From sequence record NC_041869.1: a DNA stretch of 64,000 bases. The stretch is one strand, 5' to 3'. Origin of the DNA: Escherichia phage APECc02. A program made the translations under genes and the position numbers. Under the pieces are notes generated by a model that was not told the origin of the DNA, did not search any database, and worked only from the letters and a program-made list of their open reading frames with translations. Below, in pieces: positions 570 through 45,703 of the stretch. Within the stretch, counting starts at the first letter, position 1, and the number at the start of each line of letters is the position of its first letter.

Positions 570-920
570 TCAGTAGATGTTTTGTTTAATCTCTATTCCA
601 AACTTTTTAAACGAGTCAGCTGCAAGCATGAATTTACGAGCCGCTGATGGGTTAGAAGTATGCACGAAAATCTTCACGTTGTCAACTACAGGAGGCTTAC
701 CAAATACAAATTTTTCCTCTAGGATGCAGAAGCAATCGTATCCTTCAAAAATTTCTCCCAAGTCGCTGTCAAAATGCCACTCAGAAACTCGTCTATAAAG
801 CTTTCTCTTGTCATTGATGAAATCCATAAACTCAGAAGAGTTCTTCAGCCAAAGAGCATCTTGGAGCCCGTAATTTGACGGATCTCTCAAGTCATCCAGC
901 CACACAATCAACTTCTTCAT
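570..920 (-). CDS. hypothetical protein (116 aa), translationally coupled between RNA ligase and Sir2 genes
   Basis: ORF from track; start overlaps ligase stop by 4 nt; stop 8 nt before Sir2 start; no motif recognised. Confidence 0.5.
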   Translation of the reverse strand: MKKLIVWLDDLRDPSNYGLQDALWLKNSSEFMDFINDKRKLYRRVSEWHFDSDLGEIFEGYDCFCILEEKFVFGKPPVVDNVKIFVHTSNPSAARKFMLAADSFKKFGIEIKQNIY

Positions 921-1852
921 TGCATATAGTCCTCGTTGTGGAAATAGTAGTCAAGTATCTCGCGGCGTTCCTGCTCAAGGAGACAGTTCCACACATCTTC
1001 TGTGTAATTGCTACGAATGAAGTTTACCATGCCGTAAAACTCTTCGTCAACACGTTTAAAGATATCCTCATCCCAAATCTTCCAAGCTTTACCTCTCATT
1101 ACGGCCTTCCGTGCCAAATAGTACGGAGACTTGATCTTCAGCTGCAGATCATAAGGGTAGTAAGGCTTACGAATCATATACCCTTCACCTCTTGTTTCTG
1201 CAGCTAATTCTTTTGCATAACTGAACGGAATTTCACGCACAGTGTGAGGACGTTTTGCACCAAGGTATTTGGCAATCCCATCTAAAGCTGCCTCTGGTAG
1301 CATTATTCCAGAATCATTATATCTGCAACCTATCAAATATGCGCCATGATCTTCCTGAACAATATGCGGATCTGAAGGGTGACAAATTTCAAACATGAAT
1401 GTCATGTTTTCATTGCCCATAACCTTCTTGATAAGATCTAAATTACCACATTGCTCCTGGATGGTTTCCTTTGCGAGGTTACAATATGGAGAATCAAGAG
1501 ATCCGGTTGTTGAGAACAATAGTTCACCTTTATGAGAGGATACCACACCAAGGAATCCGTTCTTTTTCTCTACCGCCGTCACAAGCTTATTGTCAGGCAG
1601 GTTGGTGGAGTTTTCTCCCAAGTTAAACACTTTTGTGAAGGGCCATGCCACAACATTTCCTTCATTACCGACAACAATGCCTCGGCACTCCAGTAAACGA
1701 GGGGACAAATGCCATAAATTGTTGTAAAATACTTTTCTGGCATATTTATAGATCTTTAACCCAAGATCCGGGTAATATCTACTGGTTACAAGACCTTTGT
1801 CAACTAGGTCGTCTGCATTAAAATACTTCATCATACGTTCCTCATTTGTCAT
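917..1852 (-). CDS. ATP-dependent RNA ligase-like nucleotidyltransferase
   Basis: 311 aa ORF; covalent nucleotidyltransferase motifs in correct order: motif I KxNG (EKKNGF), motif IV EGxxxK (EGYMIRK), motif V LKIK; adjacent to kinase and phosphatase genes. Confidence 0.6.
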   Translation of the reverse strand: MTNEERMMKYFNADDLVDKGLVTSRYYPDLGLKIYKYARKVFYNNLWHLSPRLLECRGIVVGNEGNVVAWPFTKVFNLGENSTNLPDNKLVTAVEKKNGFLGVVSSHKGELLFSTTGSLDSPYCNLAKETIQEQCGNLDLIKKVMGNENMTFMFEICHPSDPHIVQEDHGAYLIGCRYNDSGIMLPEAALDGIAKYLGAKRPHTVREIPFSYAKELAAETRGEGYMIRKPYYPYDLQLKIKSPYYLARKAVMRGKAWKIWDEDIFKRVDEEFYGMVNFIRSNYTEDVWNCLLEQERREILDYYFHNEDYMQ

Positions 1853-1895: not shown

Positions 1896-1924
1896 TTGAA
1901 ATTAACAAAACAGTTAGGTATACT
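1896..1924 (+). promoter_or_regulatory. sigma70-like promoter TTGAAA-17-TATACT upstream of kinase gene
   Basis: -35 at 1896-1901, -10 at 1919-1924, in divergent intergenic region. Confidence 0.4.
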
Positions 1925-1952
1925 ATCGTTGAAATTAAAACGGAGTATTACT

Positions 1953-2363
1953 ATGTCTAAAATGCTATATATCGTGCGTGGTCTACCAGGGTCTGGCAAA
2001 TCAACACTGGCAAATGCGCTATCTTTAGAAGGTCTGTATCCACATTTTGAGAACGACATGTTCTGGTACGACGATGATGGAAATTACAACTGGGATGCAA
2101 GTAAAGTAACACTTGCAGCAAAATGGTGCAAAGATAACGTAGAAGATATGATGCGTATGGGATACGACCGTATCGTGGTAAGTAATACGTTTACAAAAGA
2201 AAAATATGTGCAAGAATATATTGACATGGCGATCAGTCATGGGTATAGTTATACCGTGATCGTGGTTGAAAACCGCCATGGTAATAAAAGCATTCATGAT
2301 GTTCCAGACAGGGTTGTGGATCGTATGGAACGCCAGCTTAAAAATTGCATTAAACTTAAATGA
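1953..2363 (+). CDS. P-loop polynucleotide kinase-like protein
   Basis: ATG at 1953 with GGAG upstream; Walker A GLPGSGKST near N-terminus; small AAA_33/Pnk-kinase-like size (136 aa). Confidence 0.6.
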   Translation: MSKMLYIVRGLPGSGKSTLANALSLEGLYPHFENDMFWYDDDGNYNWDASKVTLAAKWCKDNVEDMMRMGYDRIVVSNTFTKEKYVQEYIDMAISHGYSYTVIVVENRHGNKSIHDVPDRVVDRMERQLKNCIKLK

Positions 2364-2370
2364 GGAATGT

Positions 2371-2925
2371 ATGAAATACTTTGTAACAAGCGACACACAC
2401 TTTCTCCACCAGCGGGTCATGGAGTTCGACTCATGTCAAAAACACAGATCTCAGTATGATCACAATCTTGACAGTATGAATGCGGGAATCATCACCGAGT
2501 GGAACTCTGTTGTGTCACCTGCAGACACTGTGTTCCACCTGGGAGATATTGCGTGCACTAATGATAAGAATATCAACAAATTGCTCCCAGATGTTCTAAA
2601 TATGTTGAACGGACATATTATTCTTGTTCGTGGTAACCATGACACAAGGACGACTGTCAGAATTATGAAAGAGTTCGGTCATGAGGTTGTAGATTATTAC
2701 GAGCTTCGCCACAACAAGAATTTGATCTGTATGAGCCATTACCAGTTTGCAAAGTGGAACAGAAAGCCTCACGGATCAGTCCAACTGTTCGGTCATGCTC
2801 ACGGAACCACACAGCAGTTGTTTGGCAGGCAGTTTGATGTCGGTTGGGATGTGTGGGGGAGACTCTTACCATTAGAAGAGGCATACCGTATTGCAATGAG
2901 TCTTGCTATTGACAGCGGGGAGTAA
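2371..2925 (+). CDS. calcineurin-like metallophosphoesterase (putative 2',3'-phosphatase)
   Basis: ATG 2371 with GAGG upstream; motifs DTHF, GDI, GNHD typical of metallophosphoesterases. Confidence 0.75.
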   Translation: MKYFVTSDTHFLHQRVMEFDSCQKHRSQYDHNLDSMNAGIITEWNSVVSPADTVFHLGDIACTNDKNINKLLPDVLNMLNGHIILVRGNHDTRTTVRIMKEFGHEVVDYYELRHNKNLICMSHYQFAKWNRKPHGSVQLFGHAHGTTQQLFGRQFDVGWDVWGRLLPLEEAYRIAMSLAIDSGE

Positions 2926-5424: not shown

Positions 5425-5763
5425 ATGGCGGATACAACTAAAAAGCGTCGCCGTAGAGGCAGACCTCTGAAAGAGGAGTCCAACGCCATTCAGCTAGAGA
5501 AGAACATCCTTGATATGAAGGAATCTTTTATAGCGATGGTTCCAGAAGCTCACAAAGTTTTAAGAGAGCTGATGTTGGACCCGAAAACCAAACAAAATAT
5601 TCGTCAAAGCATTGCAGAGTATGTTCTTGATAAGGCAGACCGAATGCAGGAAGAATATGATGAGATGTTTGGTGAAGAGGAAGAGGTGGTAGTAGAAGAG
5701 GCTGAAAAACCAGCACCTTTTATGCCATTTACCACAGAAATACAGCCTGTTGGCAATAGTTAA
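5425..5763 (+). CDS. hypothetical protein, basic N-terminus (KKRRRRGRP) and acidic C-terminus
   Basis: ATG 5425 with GGAGG RBS; 112 aa. Confidence 0.5.
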   Translation: MADTTKKRRRRGRPLKEESNAIQLEKNILDMKESFIAMVPEAHKVLRELMLDPKTKQNIRQSIAEYVLDKADRMQEEYDEMFGEEEEVVVEEAEKPAPFMPFTTEIQPVGNS

Positions 5764-5772
5764 AATATTTTC

Positions 5773-5801
5773 TTGACAAACTTTGCTTAACAGTGTAATA
5801 T
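5773..5801 (+). promoter_or_regulatory. sigma70-like promoter TTGACA-17-TAATAT driving tRNA array
   Basis: -35 5773-5778, -10 5796-5801. Confidence 0.5.
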
Positions 5802-5859
5802 TGTAAACATGGTCTCCCACCTTTTCTGGCGGCTAAGGTGTAAAAGAAAGCCACCCAGT

Positions 5860-5934
5860 GCCCTGTTAGCTTAGTGGATAAAGCAGCGGCCTTCTAAGCC
5901 GTTGACACTGGTTCGAGTCCAGTACGGGGTGCCA
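5860..5934 (+). tRNA. tRNA-Arg (anticodon TCT)
   Basis: Manual cloverleaf fold: acceptor GCCCTGT/ACGGGGT, anticodon loop CTTCTAA, T-loop TTCGAGT, encoded CCA. Confidence 0.8.
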
Positions 5935-5938
5935 AATT

Positions 5939-6025
5939 GGGGAGTTATCCCGTAGAGGTAGCGGTGTAGACTGTAAATCTATTGTCATTGCGACTCGGGT
6001 GGTTCGACTCCACCACTCCCCACCA
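5939..6025 (+). tRNA. tRNA-Tyr (anticodon GTA), long variable arm
   Basis: Acceptor GGGGAGT/ACTCCCC, anticodon loop CTGTAAA, T-loop TTCGACT, encoded CCA. Confidence 0.8.
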
Positions 6026-6139
6026 AATTTACATTTTTAAATGCATAAATCATACAGATAATGGCATTGATATTTATCGTCGTTTATACTAGTCACTAAC
6101 TGCTCGAAAATCAGTGTCATTATCAGTATTGTTTATAAA

Positions 6140-6230
6140 TGAGGGTAGGGAGCAATGGTGCTCAAGCGGTCTTGAAAACCGTCCCGTTGAGGATGACTCG
6201 ATGATGGTTCGATTCCATTACCCTCAGCCA
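6140..6230 (+). tRNA. tRNA-Ser (anticodon TGA), long variable arm
   Basis: Acceptor TGAGGGT/ACCCTCA, anticodon loop CTTGAAA, T-loop TTCGATT, encoded CCA. Confidence 0.7.
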
Positions 6231-6328
6231 TATTGTTGACCTTGTAATTAAGCGAAAGCCGGAAGCAGAACCGGATTATCAAATGTTACAGTCGTCATCG
6301 CCGACTAGCAACATGGTCAACATACTGA

Positions 6329-6427
6329 GCTAGGTAAGCCCTTTGGCAAGGGCGAGGATTTTTAATCCTGAAAATAGACGAGGTAGTCGTTGAATACATA
6401 GGTGGTTCGATTCCATCACCTAGCACC
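6329..6427 (+). tRNA. atypical tRNA-like gene (possible tRNA-Lys TTT variant or pseudogene)
   Basis: Perfect acceptor GCTAGGT/ACCTAGC, D-arm GCCC-TTTGGCAA-GGGC, T-arm GGTGG-TTCGATT-CCATC, but anticodon arm is AGGA-TTTTTAA-TCCT (4-bp stem) or 5-bp stem with 5-nt loop, then about 30-nt extra arm; only CC encoded at 3' end. Confidence 0.35.
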
Positions 6428-6432
6428 TTTTT

Positions 6433-6508
6433 GCTGATGTAGCACAATTGGTAGTGCAATTGATTTGTAATCAATAGGTTGCAGGTTCGAGTCCTGCTAT
6501 CAGCACCA
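6433..6508 (+). tRNA. tRNA-Thr (anticodon TGT)
   Basis: Acceptor GCTGATG/TATCAGC, anticodon loop TTTGTAA, T-loop TTCGAGT, encoded CCA. Confidence 0.8.
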
Positions 6509-6509
6509 T

Positions 6510-6584
6510 GGCCCTGTAGCTGGAAGGTTCAAGCAAGCGACTCATAATCGCCAGACGGTGGTTCAATTCCACCCAGGGCCACCA
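6510..6584 (+). tRNA. tRNA-Met/Ile2 (anticodon CAT)
   Basis: Acceptor GGCCCTG/CAGGGCC, anticodon loop CTCATAA, T-loop TTCAATT, encoded CCA. Confidence 0.75.
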
Positions 6585-6595
6585 AATAATAAATA

Positions 6596-6672
6596 CTCCG
6601 CGTAGCTCAGCTTGGTAGAGCGCCTGATTTGGGATCAGGAGGTCGAGTGTTCGAATCACTCCGTGGAGACCA
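6596..6672 (+). tRNA. tRNA-Pro (anticodon TGG)
   Basis: Acceptor CTCCGCG/CGTGGAG, D-stem GCTC/GAGC, anticodon loop TTTGGGA, T-loop TTCGAAT, encoded CCA. Confidence 0.75.
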
Positions 6673-6718
6673 CTTTCAGTTATACTTTAAACATATACAA
6701 ACAAAAGGAACCTTTAAA

Positions 6719-6988
6719 ATGTATACACTTAAAATTGTAGAGCGTGTAAATCCAACCCATACTGTAGATTTTCGTGACGATTTCAATCCTCTGGCTGTAA
6801 ATCTTCGAGAGTCATATCATGAACTCAGCTGCGATGCAGTGGTGGTCTTTTTTGAAGACAACTCTGAAGGGGCAGTAGCTTGTGTTGTTGATAGTGAGCA
6901 GAAGTTTTATATTTACAGAGATGTAGATGCATACTTGATGAATGAAAATGCAGTTACTGTTAGAATCATCCACCGAGTGCCTCGATAA
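6719..6988 (+). CDS. hypothetical protein
   Basis: ATG 6719 with AAGGAA RBS; 89 aa. Confidence 0.45.
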   Translation: MYTLKIVERVNPTHTVDFRDDFNPLAVNLRESYHELSCDAVVVFFEDNSEGAVACVVDSEQKFYIYRDVDAYLMNENAVTVRIIHRVPR

Positions 6989-44662: not shown

Positions 44663-45703
44663 ATGTCAAAACCTAGTTTTCCATTAGAGATTTGGGCAGA
44701 GGAGGATCAGGTTCTGCCTAACACCCACAGACAGAACAGGCTACGCCCGATTGATGATTTGTGGAGAAAAGGTTGGGATCTTGGTCAAAAGCCCTCATGT
44801 GAAGAACTTAACTATATTTTCAATATGCTCGGGACTTGGGCAAAATACATTGCTGACGAGCAGATCCCCGCTCAAGAAGGCCGTTATCTGGTACGTGATA
44901 ATAACTTGAGCGATCTTTTGAACATCCCTGTTGCCCGTAGAAACCTTGGGATTATCACTAAGGAAGAGGCAGACGCCAGGTATGTAAAAGTTACAGGTGA
45001 TACAATGACAGGCCCCTTGGGGTTGCAACGTATCAACTTTAAAGCTGCCGAGACAGATAAGGCTTGGATAGAGACAACTATTGGCCCAGATAAGACAACT
45101 CTCGACTTTGGGTTAAGTGATAATACCGGGTCGTTTGATGATGGTGGTACATCTACAGTGGATGCGTTCCGTTGGAGATTCCAGCCAACTCAGCCGGATA
45201 TTAATCCAGAGTTCACTTTGATGTACCTTAACGCGATCACGGCTAACCGTGCGCTGTTGAAAGTGGTAGGCAATGTTGAAGTTGTCGATAACATGAGGTG
45301 CAATAACCTTACTATCAGCAATACAGCGACATTCACCAACTGTAATGTGGCTAGTCAGTTGACGGCTGGGTCAGTGTATGTTAATGGTGGTGCAAGTTGT
45401 GACAGTATGGTTGTAAGAAGCCAGCACTGTGTTGTCGGTAACAGAAATGTGGTTCGCTCTGTGAACGGAGTGACGGCTAACGGTAACGGTGATGTAACGA
45501 TCACTATCCCGCAGACAGGTGTGCAAGACATCAGAATCGGTGCAAGACTTGTGGACGGAGTTTCTGAATCTCCAATCCGCAACGGCTACGTTGTCACAGG
45601 CTGGCATTTCGGTGACAAAAAAGAGATGCGTGGTTCAACCTACTGGGCAGGACCTTTACAAAAACTTGTAAATGGTCAATGGATCACTGTTAATTATGCA
45701 TAG
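44663..45703 (+). CDS. receptor-binding tail fibre protein (paralog A)
   Basis: 346 aa; termini conserved with 46718 gene (ends GPLQKLVNGQWITVNYA). Confidence 0.55.
   Translation: MSKPSFPLEIWAEEDQVLPNTHRQNRLRPIDDLWRKGWDLGQKPSCEELNYIFNMLGTWAKYIADEQIPAQEGRYLVRDNNLSDLLNIPVARRNLGIITKEEADARYVKVTGDTMTGPLGLQRINFKAAETDKAWIETTIGPDKTTLDFGLSDNTGSFDDGGTSTVDAFRWRFQPTQPDINPEFTLMYLNAITANRALLKVVGNVEVVDNMRCNNLTISNTATFTNCNVASQLTAGSVYVNGGASCDSMVVRSQHCVVGNRNVVRSVNGVTANGNGDVTITIPQTGVQDIRIGARLVDGVSESPIRNGYVVTGWHFGDKKEMRGSTYWAGPLQKLVNGQWITVNYA

What the first reader, a model, noticed from the sequence alone, without database searches (positions are those of the whole stretch)
5860..6672. Seven-gene tRNA array next to RNA-repair genes
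Seen in sequence: tRNA-Arg(TCT), Tyr(GTA), Ser(TGA), an atypical tRNA-like gene, Thr(TGT), Met(CAT) and Pro(TGG) lie within 0.8 kb behind a consensus promoter, with CCA encoded in the six canonical ones. Established knowledge: phage tRNAs supplement rare codons and can replace host tRNAs depleted by anticodon nucleases; Arg, Tyr and Lys isoacceptors are frequent nuclease targets. Inference: together with the ligase/kinase/phosphatase genes 4 kb away this suggests a two-layer counter-defence.
Basis: partly seen in the sequence, partly recalled or inferred. Interest (0 to 1): 0.5.

Follow-up and report, generated by a model that had tools for sequence, protein, structure and literature searches.

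The report
Phage tRNA operon with tRNA mimic
This is a known cluster of six transfer-RNA genes in an rV5-type E. coli phage that mainly supplies codons the phage over-uses, but it also carries a conserved tRNA-shaped RNA that cannot decode normally and whose role is unknown.

Summary
Six of the tRNAs were published in 2013. One label is wrong: the CAT gene is tRNA-Ile2 (reads AUA), not Met.

Codon counts favour codon supply as the main role. The array's cognate codons are among those the phage over-uses most relative to E. coli (AGA 13x, AUA 5x, ACA 4.5x; set p about 0.0007). An Rnl1-type ligase, a kinase, a metallophosphoesterase and a cyclic-phosphate REC protein lie 3-5 kb upstream. Counter-defence is plausible by analogy with T4 and T5, but untested.

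The 'atypical' gene is the interesting part. It is a single-copy, tRNA-shaped RNA conserved across Vequintavirinae: 26 distinct sequences, 99% of pairs kept, 13 pairs with compensatory changes, and the G19:C56 elbow pair co-varies. Its anticodon arm is 1-3 nt too short, its loop is not conserved, and its extra arm is swapped between lineages. Only in the rV5 clade do the loop (UUUUUAA) and A73 resemble tRNA-Lys. It is probably not a normal decoder, and its function is inferred, not shown.

Both spacers hold conserved structured RNAs. One is shared with phage lambda and the P1-like phage D6.

The parts
5773..5801 (+). sigma-70-type promoter TTGACA-17-TAATAT, 10 nt after the stop of the upstream ORF (ends 5763)
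   Evidence: 10/12 match; the promoter and leader are 97-100% identical in four other rV5-like loci
5860..5934 (+). tRNA-Arg(UCU), CCA encoded; reads AGA (and AGG by wobble)
   Evidence: 67.8 bits; AGA is 13.5x and AGG 11.7x enriched versus the E. coli sample
5939..6025 (+). tRNA-Tyr(GUA), long-arm type, A73, CCA encoded
   Evidence: 29.9 bits, just above the threshold of 29; Tyr codons only about 1.5x enriched
6045..6136 (+). spacer-1 long AU-rich hairpin (about 33 pairs in the main stem); candidate double-strand RNase processing site
   Evidence: z = -4.0, 0 of 200 shuffles fold as well; pairing kept in a divergent relative, with one double and several single compensatory changes; conserved only in Vequintavirus
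6140..6230 (+). tRNA-Ser(UGA), G73, CCA encoded, tRNA-Sec-like long D-stem with tetraloop; can be drawn 8/4 or 7/5
   Evidence: tRNA-Sec model 40 bits, no tRNA-model hit; 78/87 identical to phage D6 tRNA-Ser(UGA); eighth acceptor pair A-U possible in all four related genes examined; class described in phages by PMC5389517
6234..6322 (+). spacer-2 three-helix structured element (outer helix, CCGG[AAGCAGAA]CCGG hairpin, GUCG[UCAUCGC]CGAC hairpin)
   Evidence: the core is about 87-90% identical to lambda 44866-44934, D6 and ST1UNAM; the outer helix has at least five different sequences that all keep pairing; the third helix co-varies; no Rfam family
6329..6427 (+). tRNA-like RNA (non-canonical): 7-bp acceptor, 6-bp D-stem with tetraloop, 15-nt anticodon arm (AGGAU-UUUUA-AUCCU), 31-nt extra region with a 5-bp hairpin, canonical T arm, A73-C-C
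6433..6508 (+). tRNA-Thr(UGU), CCA encoded; reads ACA
   Evidence: 76.2 bits; ACA 4.5x enriched
   Evidence: AUA 4.9x enriched, AUG 0.87x
6596..6672 (+). tRNA-Pro(UGG), C1-G72, A73, CCA encoded
   Evidence: 66.4 bits; 82% identical to T4 tRNA-Pro
917..1852 (-). Rnl1-type (T4 gp63-like) RNA ligase
   Evidence: PF09511 6e-15; phrog_562 4e-66; annotated 'RNA ligase' in MaxTheCat
570..920 (-). cyclic-phosphate-processing receiver-domain protein (cREC_REC), co-oriented with the ligase
   Evidence: PF20274 1.7e-13
1896..2363 (+). P-loop polynucleotide-kinase-like protein (longest ORF; the true start is probably near 1953)
   Evidence: PF13671 4.8e-10; phrog_2071 and phrog_505 'polynucleotide kinase'
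2371..2925 (+). calcineurin-like metallophosphoesterase (candidate 2',3'-phosphate end-healing enzyme)
   Evidence: PF12850 and PF00149; phrog_547 4e-51; PDB 1xm7 6e-11

Best explanation
The locus is one promoter-driven polycistronic tRNA operon of an rV5-like phage. Host RNA polymerase starts at 5773-5801. No terminator-like site follows tRNA-Pro before the next ORF (6719-6988), so the array is probably co-transcribed with downstream genes. Host tRNA-maturation enzymes then cut out six ordinary tRNAs: Arg-UCU, Tyr-GUA, Ser-UGA, Thr-UGU, Ile2-CAU and Pro-UGG. Their main job is to add decoding capacity for codons that this 44% GC phage uses far more than E. coli does (AGA/AGG, AUA, ACA, and to a lesser degree UCA/UCU and CCU/CCA). 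I put this part at about 0.75. The same processing would release three structured non-tRNA RNAs: the spacer-1 hairpin, the spacer-2 three-helix element, and the tRNA-like RNA. The tRNA-like RNA is a selected, L-shaped tRNA mimic of the tRNA-Sec/allo-tRNA architectural type that is not a normal decoder. It keeps everything needed by RNase P, the CCA-adding enzyme and elbow-binding proteins. It has a shortened anticodon arm and a lineage-specific, swappable extra arm. I put 'non-canonical, not a standard decoder' at about 0.8. My best guess for its role is that it occupies or distracts a tRNA-binding factor, such as a host tRNA nuclease or toxin. In the rV5 clade it would do so by imitating tRNA-Lys. 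That last step is inference only, at about 0.25. Shown: the gene set, the codon bias, the fold and its conservation. Inferred: transcription and processing, modification of CAU to lysidine, and any function of the three non-tRNA RNAs.
For: Identity and prior knowledge: the stretch is 100% identical to Shigella phage CM1 and 98-99% identical to many rV5-like phages, whose records annotate the tRNAs. Six tRNAs and a codon argument were published for rV5 (PMC3606486).

Codon demand: I compared 72 window ORFs (18,556 codons) with 42 annotated E. coli K-12 genes (14,748 codons). Frequencies per 1000 codons, phage versus host, are AGA 16.5 vs 1.2, AGG 7.9 vs 0.7, AUA 11.9 vs 2.4 and ACA 24.1 vs 5.4. 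These are the four most enriched codons. The six cognate codons rank 1, 3, 4, 12, 17 and 23 of 61, with permutation p = 0.0007; the p-value is 0.008 if the CAT gene were Met.

Ile2.

tRNA-like RNA: orthologs occur in Avunavirus, Seunavirus, Henunavirus and Mydovirus phages and in metagenomes. Among 26 distinct sequences, 99.2% of cells are paired (34-47% when partners are slid), 13 of 24 pairs show double changes, and the tertiary 19:56 pair is G:C in 17 and U:A in 9. There is one hit per genome at 102-124 bits, against 32 bits or less for any true tRNA. The anticodon arm is 14-16 nt in every member, where the canonical length is 17, and the loop varies: UUUUA, UUAUA, CAUCA, CAUCCA, CCUCAA, (C/U)AUCAAA, GUGAUA. 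ARAGORN does not call it in the other genera. The large arrays keep it. At least one (L030) keeps it alongside a genuine tRNA-Lys(UUU). AAA is not enriched (1.02x). The extra arm occurs in at least eight unrelated versions and is exchanged between lineages: GAACUAACAGUA is shared by Erwinia phages and some Klebsiella phages on different scaffolds.
Against: There are no expression, processing or aminoacylation data for any of these RNAs, and I found none in the searchable literature. The codon reference is a 50-kb sample of E. coli K-12, and the phage ORFs were picked heuristically. UAC, CCA and UCA are only 1.4-2x enriched, so codon supply alone explains Tyr, Pro and Ser weakly. In the rV5 clade the tRNA-like RNA passes Rfam's tRNA threshold (35.5 vs 29 bits) when drawn with a 4-bp stem and a 7-nt UUUUUAA loop. 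This clade alone also has A73. So a decoding Lys tRNA cannot be excluded for this window. The proposed decoy role has no direct support.
Confidence: 0.65

Rival explanations
1. The array exists mainly as a counter-defence. Phage tRNA-Tyr, tRNA-Arg and a Lys-like RNA replace host tRNAs destroyed by anticodon nucleases. The ligase, kinase and phosphoesterase genes upstream re-join whatever is cut. Together they would form two layers.
For: The principle is established elsewhere: T5 tRNA-Tyr versus retron-Eco7, and tRNA-Lys versus PrrC170 (PMC11555353); T5 tRNA-Lys versus PARIS (PMC11464382). tRNA-Tyr has the weakest codon-usage justification here (1.5x). A strong promoter drives the array. A complete heal-and-seal gene set lies 3-5 kb away. 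The ligase is conserved across Vequintavirinae.
Against: Three of the six tRNAs read the four most phage-enriched codons, which codon supply explains without invoking defence. No paper links rV5-type phages to tRNA-targeting systems. The ligase family occurs in hundreds of unrelated phages and lies about 9 kb from the element in Hena1, so the linkage is loose. I did not compare anticodon stem-loops with host tRNAs using tool-derived sequences.
Confidence: 0.3
2. In the rV5 clade the atypical gene is a working but structurally odd tRNA-Lys(UUU). It would have a 4-bp anticodon stem, a 7-nt loop UUUUUAA and A73. It would be charged by LysRS and resistant to Lys-specific anticodon nucleases.
For: The Rfam tRNA model aligns it that way at 35.5 bits. 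Several deposited records call it tRNA-Lys/AAA. The 12-nt core GAUUUUUAAUCC differs from E. coli tRNA-Lys GACUUUUAAUCA (sequence given in PMC11464382) at two positions. This clade alone changed the discriminator to A73, which is a LysRS identity element (my own knowledge). rV5-type arrays have no other Lys tRNA.
Against: The arm is 15 nt instead of 17. The pair that must open (U31-A39) is kept as C-G in most orthologs. The sister clade Av-05 has UUAUA and U73. The long extra region with 7-9-nt single-stranded flanks and A8/U14 are unlike any Lys tRNA. There is no codon demand for AAA. CCA is not encoded, and one variant ends ACAT.
Confidence: 0.15
3. The tRNA-like RNA is a serine-accepting allo-tRNA-type recoder: an opal suppressor (UCA) in Erwinia-type members and a missense decoder elsewhere.
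For: It has a Sec-like D-arm, a long extra arm and U73, which are the features Mukai et al. link to SerRS recognition. Erwinia-type members have a 7-nt loop (C/U)AUCAAA containing UCA, and Hena1 annotates it as sup(tca).
Against: Position 33 is A or C, never the universal U, outside the rV5 clade. Loop length varies from 5 to 8 nt. The acceptor/T branch is 7/5, not 8/4 or 9/3. The anticodon arm is shorter, whereas allo-tRNAs have longer ones. The tRNA-Sec model scores 29 bits against a threshold of 47.
Confidence: 0.05
4. The atypical gene is a decaying tRNA pseudogene, or merely an RNase P punctuation signal with no function of its own.
For: It lacks a canonical anticodon loop. The loop and extra arm vary freely.
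Against: All four stems and the G19:C56 tertiary pair are maintained by compensatory changes across at least five genera. The single-stranded flanks GAAAA(U)A and AAUACAUAGG are nearly invariant. It is single-copy in every genome examined. A processing signal would not need a conserved D arm, elbow pair or CCA.
Confidence: 0.07

Closest known systems
Published tRNA set of phage rV5 (Kropinski et al. 2013, PMC3606486) and GenBank annotations of rV5-like phages
   Same: Same genes, order and sequence (98-100% identity). The paper already argues codon compensation for Arg and Pro.
   Different: The paper lists six tRNAs, calls the CAT gene Met, and omits the atypical gene. Records label that gene inconsistently as tRNA-Lys, tRNA-OTHER, ???(atcc) or TERM, or leave it unannotated. 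Spacer RNAs and RNA-repair genes are not discussed.
Phage T4 tRNA cluster with the stable RNAs rnaC and rnaD (species 1 and 2)
   Same: A promoter-driven cluster of tRNAs for A-ending or rare codons (Arg-UCU, Ile-CAU, Thr-UGU, Ser-UGA, Pro-UGG are shared isoacceptors, 68-82% identical). It is interspersed with small stable non-tRNA RNAs of unknown function. rnaC ends in a tRNA-like T arm GGTTCGAATCC.
   Different: There is no sequence or model similarity between rnaC/rnaD and the window's spacers or tRNA-like RNA (51% identity or less; no hit in the T4 locus beyond true tRNAs). T4 has a homing endonuclease in the cluster.
allo-tRNAs and (8/4) phage tRNA-Ser (Mukai et al. 2017, PMC5389517)
   Same: tRNA-Sec-like long D-stem with tetraloop, long extra arm, G73/U73 discriminator, highly diverse 'anticodons', occurrence in irregular tRNA polycistrons and in phages, and a suspicion that many are not used for translation. 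The window's tRNA-Ser(UGA) fits the phage tRNA-Ser description.
   Different: The tRNA-like RNA has a normal 7/5 acceptor/T branch. Its anticodon arm is shorter, not longer. It also has long conserved single-stranded flanks around the extra arm.
T5 tRNA-Tyr versus retron-Eco7, and T5 tRNA-Lys versus PARIS (PMC11555353, PMC11464382)
   Same: A virulent coliphage carries tRNA genes behind a strong promoter, including Tyr. In the window there is also an RNA with a tRNA-Lys-like loop.
   Different: Those are canonical, translation-competent tRNAs with demonstrated rescue phenotypes. Nothing comparable has been tested for rV5-type phages.
T4 Pnk + Rnl1 tRNA repair, and bacterial Pnkp-type heal-and-seal systems
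   Same: An Rnl1-family ligase plus a P-loop 5'-kinase plus a 2',3'-phosphoesterase, encoded close together.
   Different: The kinase and phosphatase are separate proteins. The phosphatase is a calcineurin-type metallophosphoesterase (as in bacterial Pnkp, my own knowledge) rather than T4's acyl-phosphatase domain. An extra cREC_REC protein is present. There are no sequence matches to solved ligase or kinase structures.

Membership tests
Canonical elongator tRNA (applied to 6329-6427) | 7-bp acceptor stem and 5-bp T stem with a 7-nt GTTCRAnY-type T loop | tested here: met
   100% of cells paired in both helices across 26 sequences; T loop UUCGAUU or UUAGAUU
Canonical elongator tRNA (applied to 6329-6427) | D-loop/T-loop elbow (G19:C56 pair) | tested here: met
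   G:C in 17 and U:A in 9 sequences, never mismatched
Canonical elongator tRNA (applied to 6329-6427) | 17-nt anticodon arm: 5-bp stem, 7-nt loop, U33 | tested here: not met
   The arm is 14-16 nt in all members. Position 33 is A or C outside the rV5/Av-05 clade.
Canonical elongator tRNA (applied to 6329-6427) | Anticodon conserved among orthologs | tested here: not met
   At least seven different loop sequences and four loop lengths
Canonical elongator tRNA (applied to 6329-6427) | U8 and A14 (tertiary pair) | tested here: not met
   Position 8 is A and the first D-loop base is U in all members (alignments). The numbering is by my own reading.
Canonical elongator tRNA (applied to 6329-6427) | Recognised by general tRNA models | tested here: inconclusive
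   Window copy: Rfam tRNA 35.5 bits (threshold 29) and ARAGORN '???'. Orthologs: no ARAGORN call and only sub-threshold tRNA-Sec hits.
Canonical elongator tRNA (applied to 6329-6427) | Aminoacylation and use on the ribosome | not testable with these tools
   Needs acid-gel northern, tRNA-seq or in vitro charging
tRNA-Ile2 (lysidine CAU; applied to 6510-6584) | Anticodon CAU with closest similarity to known tRNA-Ile2 rather than tRNA-Met | tested here: met
   All full-length E. coli matches listed (76-82% identity; 5,412 genomes hold one) are annotated tRNA-Ile. Acceptor stem shared with T4 tRNA-Ile.
tRNA-Ile2 (lysidine CAU; applied to 6510-6584) | C4-G69 and C5-G68 in the acceptor stem (TilS determinants, recalled from Ikeuchi et al. 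2005; my own knowledge) | tested here: met
   Acceptor GGCCCUG / CAGGGCC read directly from the sequence
tRNA-Ile2 (lysidine CAU; applied to 6510-6584) | C34 converted to lysidine by TilS | not testable with these tools
   Needs mass spectrometry of the RNA
T4-type tRNA repair (Pnk + Rnl1) | Rnl1-family ATP-dependent RNA ligase | tested here: met
   PF09511 6e-15; phrog_562 4e-66
T4-type tRNA repair (Pnk + Rnl1) | Bifunctional Pnk with P-loop kinase and DxDxT acyl-phosphatase domains in one protein | tested here: not met
   The kinase (1896-2363) and a calcineurin-type metallophosphoesterase (2371-2925) are separate ORFs.
T4-type tRNA repair (Pnk + Rnl1) | Repairs anticodon-loop breaks in tRNA | not testable with these tools
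   Biochemical assay required
Phage tRNA as anti-nuclease countermeasure (T5 tRNA-Tyr / tRNA-Lys type) | Phage tRNA is cognate to a host tRNA known to be a defence-nuclease target | tested here: met
   tRNA-Tyr(GUA) is present. Targets are from PMC11555353 and PMC11464382. For Lys there is only the non-canonical RNA.
Phage tRNA as anti-nuclease countermeasure (T5 tRNA-Tyr / tRNA-Lys type) | Rescue of infection on a host carrying the nuclease | not testable with these tools
   No experimental data found for rV5-type phages
allo-tRNA (Mukai et al. 2017) | 8/4 or 9/3 acceptor/T branch | tested here: not met
   The tRNA-like RNA is 7/5: position 8 (A) faces C, so there is no eighth pair. For tRNA-Ser(UGA) an eighth A-U pair is possible but invariant, so that case is unresolved.
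allo-tRNA (Mukai et al. 2017) | tRNA-Sec-like long D-stem with tetraloop, long V-arm, G73 or U73 | tested here: met
   6-bp D-stem with three co-varying pairs plus a 4-nt loop. Extra arm present in all. U73 in all but the rV5 clade.
T4 species 1/2 stable RNAs (rnaC, rnaD) | Sequence or model homology to rnaC/rnaD | tested here: not met
   51% identity or less. The covariance model finds only true tRNAs in the T4 locus.

The most novel reading that the evidence does not exclude
The tRNA-like RNA is the founding member of an RNA-based counter-defence family. It would be a tRNA-shaped scaffold, matured by the host's own tRNA enzymes, with two tuned parts: a shortened anticodon arm and a swappable extra arm. 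These would be adapted in each phage lineage to trap or mislead a particular tRNA-targeting nuclease or toxin. In the rV5 clade it would imitate tRNA-Lys(UUU) and act together with the nearby Rnl1/kinase/phosphoesterase repair genes.
Probability: 0.15. Interest if true: 0.8.

Novelty: new variant of a known kind. Interest (0 to 1): 0.45.

Why it matters
Three things are worth taking forward.

(1) The CAT gene is routinely mislabelled Met. Read as Ile2, it completes a clean codon-supply picture.

(2) A whole subfamily of widely used therapeutic and typing phages (Vequintavirinae) carries one strongly selected tRNA-shaped RNA that cannot decode normally and is annotated in at least five contradictory ways. 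It is small, single-copy and sits in genetically tractable BASEL-collection phages. Its function, whether decoy, non-ribosomal aminoacyl donor or regulator, can be tested directly on hosts carrying PrrC, PARIS, retron-Eco7, OLD or Schlafen systems.

(3) One spacer holds an undescribed structured RNA that is also present in phage lambda's late leader, one of the most studied stretches of DNA in biology.

Tried and rejected
- Homology of the spacers or the tRNA-like RNA to T4 rnaC/rnaD: none.
- Rfam families for spacer 1, spacer 2 and the lambda/D6 copies: nothing above noise, only a sub-threshold STnc100 hit downstream of the D6 copy.
- Spacer 2 as AgvB/AsxR or a Pas sRNA: Rfam, which holds AgvB and AsxR models (RF02702, RF02703), gave no hit. 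The Pas paper gave no matching description. No paper in the library contains the core sequence.
- tRNA-Sec identity for the Ser gene and the tRNA-like RNA: sub-threshold scores and wrong anticodon, discriminator and branch.
- Solved-structure relatives of the ligase and kinase by sequence: none.
- Genome-contig scan for spacer 2: the hits are short or low-coverage contigs from unrelated taxa, several about 48.4 kb long. I read this as lambda spike-in contamination and discarded them.
- Search for expression data on Vequintavirus: nothing relevant.
- Paralog analysis of the tRNA-like RNA against the tRNAs of a large array: uninformative because of end-gap effects. The covariance model gave the clearer answer, that type II tRNAs are closest.
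- 8/4 versus 7/5 fold for tRNA-Ser(UGA): the eighth pair is invariant, so it is unresolved.
- Not attempted: structure prediction, large protein-homology searches, and a tool-based comparison of phage and host anticodon stem-loops.
Full report
**1. What the window is**

Bases 5700-6750 are 100% identical to Shigella phage CM1 and 98-99% identical to dozens of rV5-like phages (genus Vequintavirus, genomes about 137 kb). Those GenBank records annotate tRNA genes here. The rV5 genome paper reports six tRNAs (Arg-AGA, Tyr-TAC, Thr-ACA, Met-ATG, Pro-CCA, plus Ser found only by ARAGORN). It already argues that Arg and Pro help translate phage mRNAs (PMC3606486). The array as such is therefore known.

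**2. The observation**

Rfam's tRNA model passes threshold for six of them, including the atypical one at 35.5 bits. Ser(tga) reaches only 40 bits on the tRNA-Sec model.

All six canonical genes encode CCA. The atypical one ends A-C-C-T.

The promoter TTGACA-17-TAATAT lies at 5773-5801. It matches 10 of 12 positions, with a perfect -35 and a 4/6 -10. The promoter and leader are conserved in four other rV5-like loci.

No terminator-like site lies between tRNA-Pro (ends 6672) and the next ORF (6719-6988). The array is therefore probably co-transcribed with downstream genes. One record annotates an i-spanin two genes further on.

**3. RNA-repair neighbours**

| Window position | Strand | Protein | Evidence |
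|---|---|---|---|
| 917-1852 | - | Rnl1-type ligase | PF09511 6e-15; phrog_562 'RNA ligase and tail fiber attachment catalyst' 4e-66 |
| 570-920 | - | cyclic-phosphate-processing receiver domain | PF20274 1.7e-13 |
| 1896-2363 | + | P-loop kinase | AAA_33; phrog_505 'polynucleotide kinase' |
| 2371-2925 | + | calcineurin-type metallophosphoesterase | Pfam, PHROGs, PDB 1xm7 |

The ligase family is present across Vequintavirinae; in Hena1 it lies about 9 kb from the tRNA region. It is also found in hundreds of unrelated Pseudomonas, Vibrio and Streptomyces phages. The linkage to the array is loose rather than specific.

**4. A label correction**

The CAT gene (6510-6584) matches annotated E. coli tRNA-Ile genes over its full length. 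Such a match is present in 5,412 genomes at 76-82% identity, and every record listed is annotated tRNA-Ile. It shares the acceptor stem GGCCCUG with T4 tRNA-Ile. It has C4-G69 and C5-G68, which I recall as the TilS determinants. The BASEL record MaxTheCat annotates it as tRNA-Ile/ATA. It is best read as tRNA-Ile2, decoding AUA.

**5.

I counted codons in 72 non-overlapping window ORFs (18,556 codons) and in 42 annotated E. coli K-12 genes (14,748 codons).

| Codon | Phage per 1000 | E. coli per 1000 | Ratio |
|---|---|---|---|
| AGA | 16.5 | 1.2 | 13.5x |
| AGG | 7.9 | 0.7 | 11.7x |
| AUA | 11.9 | 2.4 | 4.9x |
| ACA | 24.1 | 5.4 | 4.5x |

- These are the four most phage-enriched codons. They are read by the Arg(UCU), Ile2 and Thr(UGU) genes.
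- CCU (3.2x), UCU (2.1x) and UCA (2.0x) come next and could be covered by the U34 Pro and Ser tRNAs.
- UAC and UAU are only about 1.5x enriched. AUG is 0.87x and AAA 1.02x.
- The six cognate codons rank 1, 3, 4, 12, 17 and 23 of 61. As a set they are more enriched than random codon sets, with p = 0.0007; the p-value is 0.008 if the CAT gene is counted as Met.

Codon supply is therefore the best-supported role. The Ile2 reassignment improves the fit.

**6. The counter-defence idea**

The literature establishes the principle:
- Retron-Eco7 depletes tRNA-Tyr, and T5 tRNA-Tyr expressed from a very strong promoter rescues infection. Supplying tRNA-Lys rescues phages from PrrC170.
- PARIS cuts tRNA-Lys at position 40/41, and T5 carries a non-cleavable variant.
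- Bacterial Schlafens cut tRNA-Lys(UUU) and others.

None of these papers mentions rV5-type phages. The BASEL paper reports on their sensitivity to restriction-modification systems but says nothing about their tRNAs. The idea is plausible, compatible with codon supply, and untested. tRNA-Tyr is the member with the weakest codon rationale, so it is the best candidate for a defence-related role.

**7. The atypical gene is a conserved tRNA-shaped RNA**

*Distribution.* BLAST with the window copy and then with a 72%-identical Seunavirus copy found it in 180 phage records from Escherichia, Salmonella, Klebsiella, Cronobacter, Erwinia, Enterobacter, Proteus and Raoultella phages. In the eleven loci I fetched, and in IMG/VR and metagenome contigs, it always lies inside the tRNA array. 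Outside Vequintavirus it sits 2 nt after the tRNA that follows tRNA-Thr(UGU), or 2 nt after tRNA-Thr itself in the Erwinia phages and Av-05. ARAGORN does not call it in those genomes.

*Fold.* On 14 and then 26 distinct sequences the cloverleaf is kept in 99% of cells, against 34-48% when partners are slid. Ten and then 13 of 24 pairs show changes on both sides. The tertiary elbow pair co-varies: D-loop UUUGGCAA goes with T-loop UUCGAUU, and UUUGUCAA goes with UUAGAUU, giving G:C in 17 sequences and U:A in 9. A covariance model finds exactly one copy per genome at 102-124 bits. The best true tRNA scores 32 bits. In the window the runner-up is tRNA-Ser(UGA) at 25 bits. This rules out a decaying pseudogene.

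**8. Why it is not a normal tRNA**

- With G26 in place, the co-varying 5-bp stem occupies positions 27-31/39-43 and leaves a loop of 5-6 nt. The whole arm is 14-16 nt in every member, instead of 17.
- The loop differs between lineages: UUUUA (rV5 type), UUAUA (Av-05 type), CAUCA, CAUCCA, CCUCAA, (C/U)AUCAAA and GUGAUA. Outside the rV5/Av-05 clade, position 33 is never U.
- Position 8 is A and the first D-loop base is U.
- The D arm is a 6-bp stem with a tetraloop, as in tRNA-Sec.
- Between the anticodon and T arms lie nearly invariant single strands (GAAAAUA and GAAUACAUAGG) flanking a hairpin. That hairpin occurs in at least eight unrelated versions and is exchanged between lineages. Klebsiella phages KPP-1 and DP share the loop GAACUAACAGUA with Erwinia phages, although their scaffold equals that of KB57, which carries a different arm.
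- Most members encode U73-CCA. The rV5 clade has A73-C-C, and Av-05 has U73-A-C-A.
- Arrays with a genuine tRNA-Lys(UUU) keep the element as well.

**9. What the tRNA-like RNA might do**

The closest described class is the allo-tRNAs and phage (8/4) tRNA-Ser of Mukai et al. Those have a Sec-like D arm, a long V-arm, G73/U73 and very diverse anticodons, and some members are suspected of not being used in translation. The present RNA differs in two ways: it has a 7/5 branch and a shortened rather than lengthened anticodon arm.

The window's tRNA-Ser(UGA) does fit the phage tRNA-Ser description. It has a Sec-like D arm, and an eighth A-U acceptor pair is possible but invariant.

Functionally, the nearest analogues are T4's stable RNAs rnaC and rnaD, which also sit in a tRNA cluster. 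rnaC has a tRNA-like T arm. They are not homologous to the window's RNAs.

My reading is that this RNA engages RNase P, the CCA-adding enzyme and elbow-binding proteins but is not a standard decoder. Its role may be to occupy a tRNA-binding factor.

In the rV5 clade only, the arm GAUUUUUAAUCC resembles E. coli tRNA-Lys GACUUUUAAUCA (one search gives the host sequence), and the discriminator is A. That keeps two readings open: a tRNA-Lys decoy, or an odd Lys tRNA with a 4-bp stem. I rate the odd-Lys-tRNA reading at 0.15 and the decoy family at about 0.15-0.25. These are inferences.

**10. The spacers are not empty**

*Spacer 1 (6026-6139).* It folds into a long hairpin (z = -4.0). The pairing is preserved in a divergent relative with one double and several single compensatory changes. 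It is restricted to Vequintavirus. I suggest, but have not shown, that it is a double-strand RNase site.

*Spacer 2 (6231-6328).* It contains a core of about 70 nt that is 87-90% identical to four other elements:
- phage lambda 44866-44934, between orf-64 and S;
- lambdoid prophages, between Q and the holin gene;
- the P1-like phage D6, where it again follows a tRNA-Ser(UGA) that is 78/87 identical to the window's;
- the siphovirus ST1UNAM.

It occurs in 426 of 5,426 E. coli genomes and in more than 120 IMG/VR contigs.

The core is enclosed by an outer helix with at least five different sequences that all pair. One internal hairpin co-varies: GUCG/CGAC versus GGCG/CGCC. No Rfam family matches it, and no paper in the library contains its sequence.

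tRNA processing on both sides would release it as an RNA of about 98 nt. Its function is unknown.

**11. Verdict**

The array is known. The conserved non-decoding tRNA-like RNA and the lambda-shared structured spacer appear to be undescribed. They are new variants of known kinds, namely irregular phage tRNA-like RNAs and small stable RNAs in phage tRNA clusters.

Noticed in passing
window 6234-6322 (core 6246-6313); lambda NC_001416 44866-44934 (L004 1001-1069); D6 L005 1501-1566; ST1UNAM L006 1501-1568: An undescribed three-helix structured element is shared by rV5-like phages, phage lambda (late leader between orf-64 and S), lambdoid prophages (between Q and the holin gene), P1-like D6 (after tRNA-Ser) and a Salmonella siphovirus. 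Its outer helix has at least five co-varying versions. There is no Rfam family and no literature hit for its sequence.
   Followed up: partly
window 6045-6136: Spacer 1 is a conserved AU-rich hairpin (about 33 pairs in the main stem; z = -4.0) found only in Vequintavirus. Some records annotate it as 'repeat_region'. It may be a double-strand RNase processing site.
   Followed up: partly
window 6140-6230; L005 1391-1477: tRNA-Ser(UGA) has a tRNA-Sec-like D arm, fails the general Rfam tRNA model, can be drawn with an 8/4 acceptor/T branch, and is 90% identical to the tRNA-Ser of phage-plasmid D6. Together with the trailing spacer-2 element it looks like a horizontally shared module.
   Followed up: partly
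L019, L020, L021 1428-1502; L030 5383-5457; L012 and L014 1427-1502; L016 1429-1502: The tRNA gene immediately upstream of the tRNA-like RNA occupies the same slot in different genera but carries different anticodons: Ile-GAU in Seunavirus, Arg-GCG in LNA4, and an ARAGORN '???(ga)' two-base call in Klebsiella Mydovirus. This suggests anticodon remodelling, or a second irregular tRNA.
   Followed up: no
L006 1282-1371 and 1477-1590: ST1UNAM has two cassettes bounded by the same flanking arms (ACACAACAGG...AGTGCTnTTTCCGTTGTG) with different interiors. Lambda's 5' flank of the spacer-2 element matches ST1UNAM's 3' flank. The outer arms may be a reusable frame.
   Followed up: no
loci L151-L172 (genome-contig scan): Exact copies of the lambda element appear on low-coverage or short contigs, several about 48.4 kb long, in assemblies of Pseudomonas, Shewanella, Bacillus-group, Bradyrhizobium, Segatella and others. 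This is almost certainly lambda control-DNA contamination of public assemblies.
   Followed up: no
window 570-920 (-): A cyclic-phosphate-processing receiver-domain protein (PF20274) is co-oriented with, and overlaps the end of, the Rnl1-type ligase gene. Deposited records call it hypothetical.
   Followed up: no
GenBank MG0656xx records: About 18-23 records named 'Campylobacter phage' (host C. jejuni, unannotated) are 99-100% identical to E. coli rV5-like phages in this region. This suggests mislabelled hosts or contaminating coliphages.
   Followed up: no
L005 1587-1707: In D6 a sub-threshold STnc100 (RF02076) match (39.6 bits against a threshold of 47) lies just downstream of the spacer-2-type element. 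A 2026 preprint links STnc100 to the prophage PasD sRNAs.
   Followed up: no
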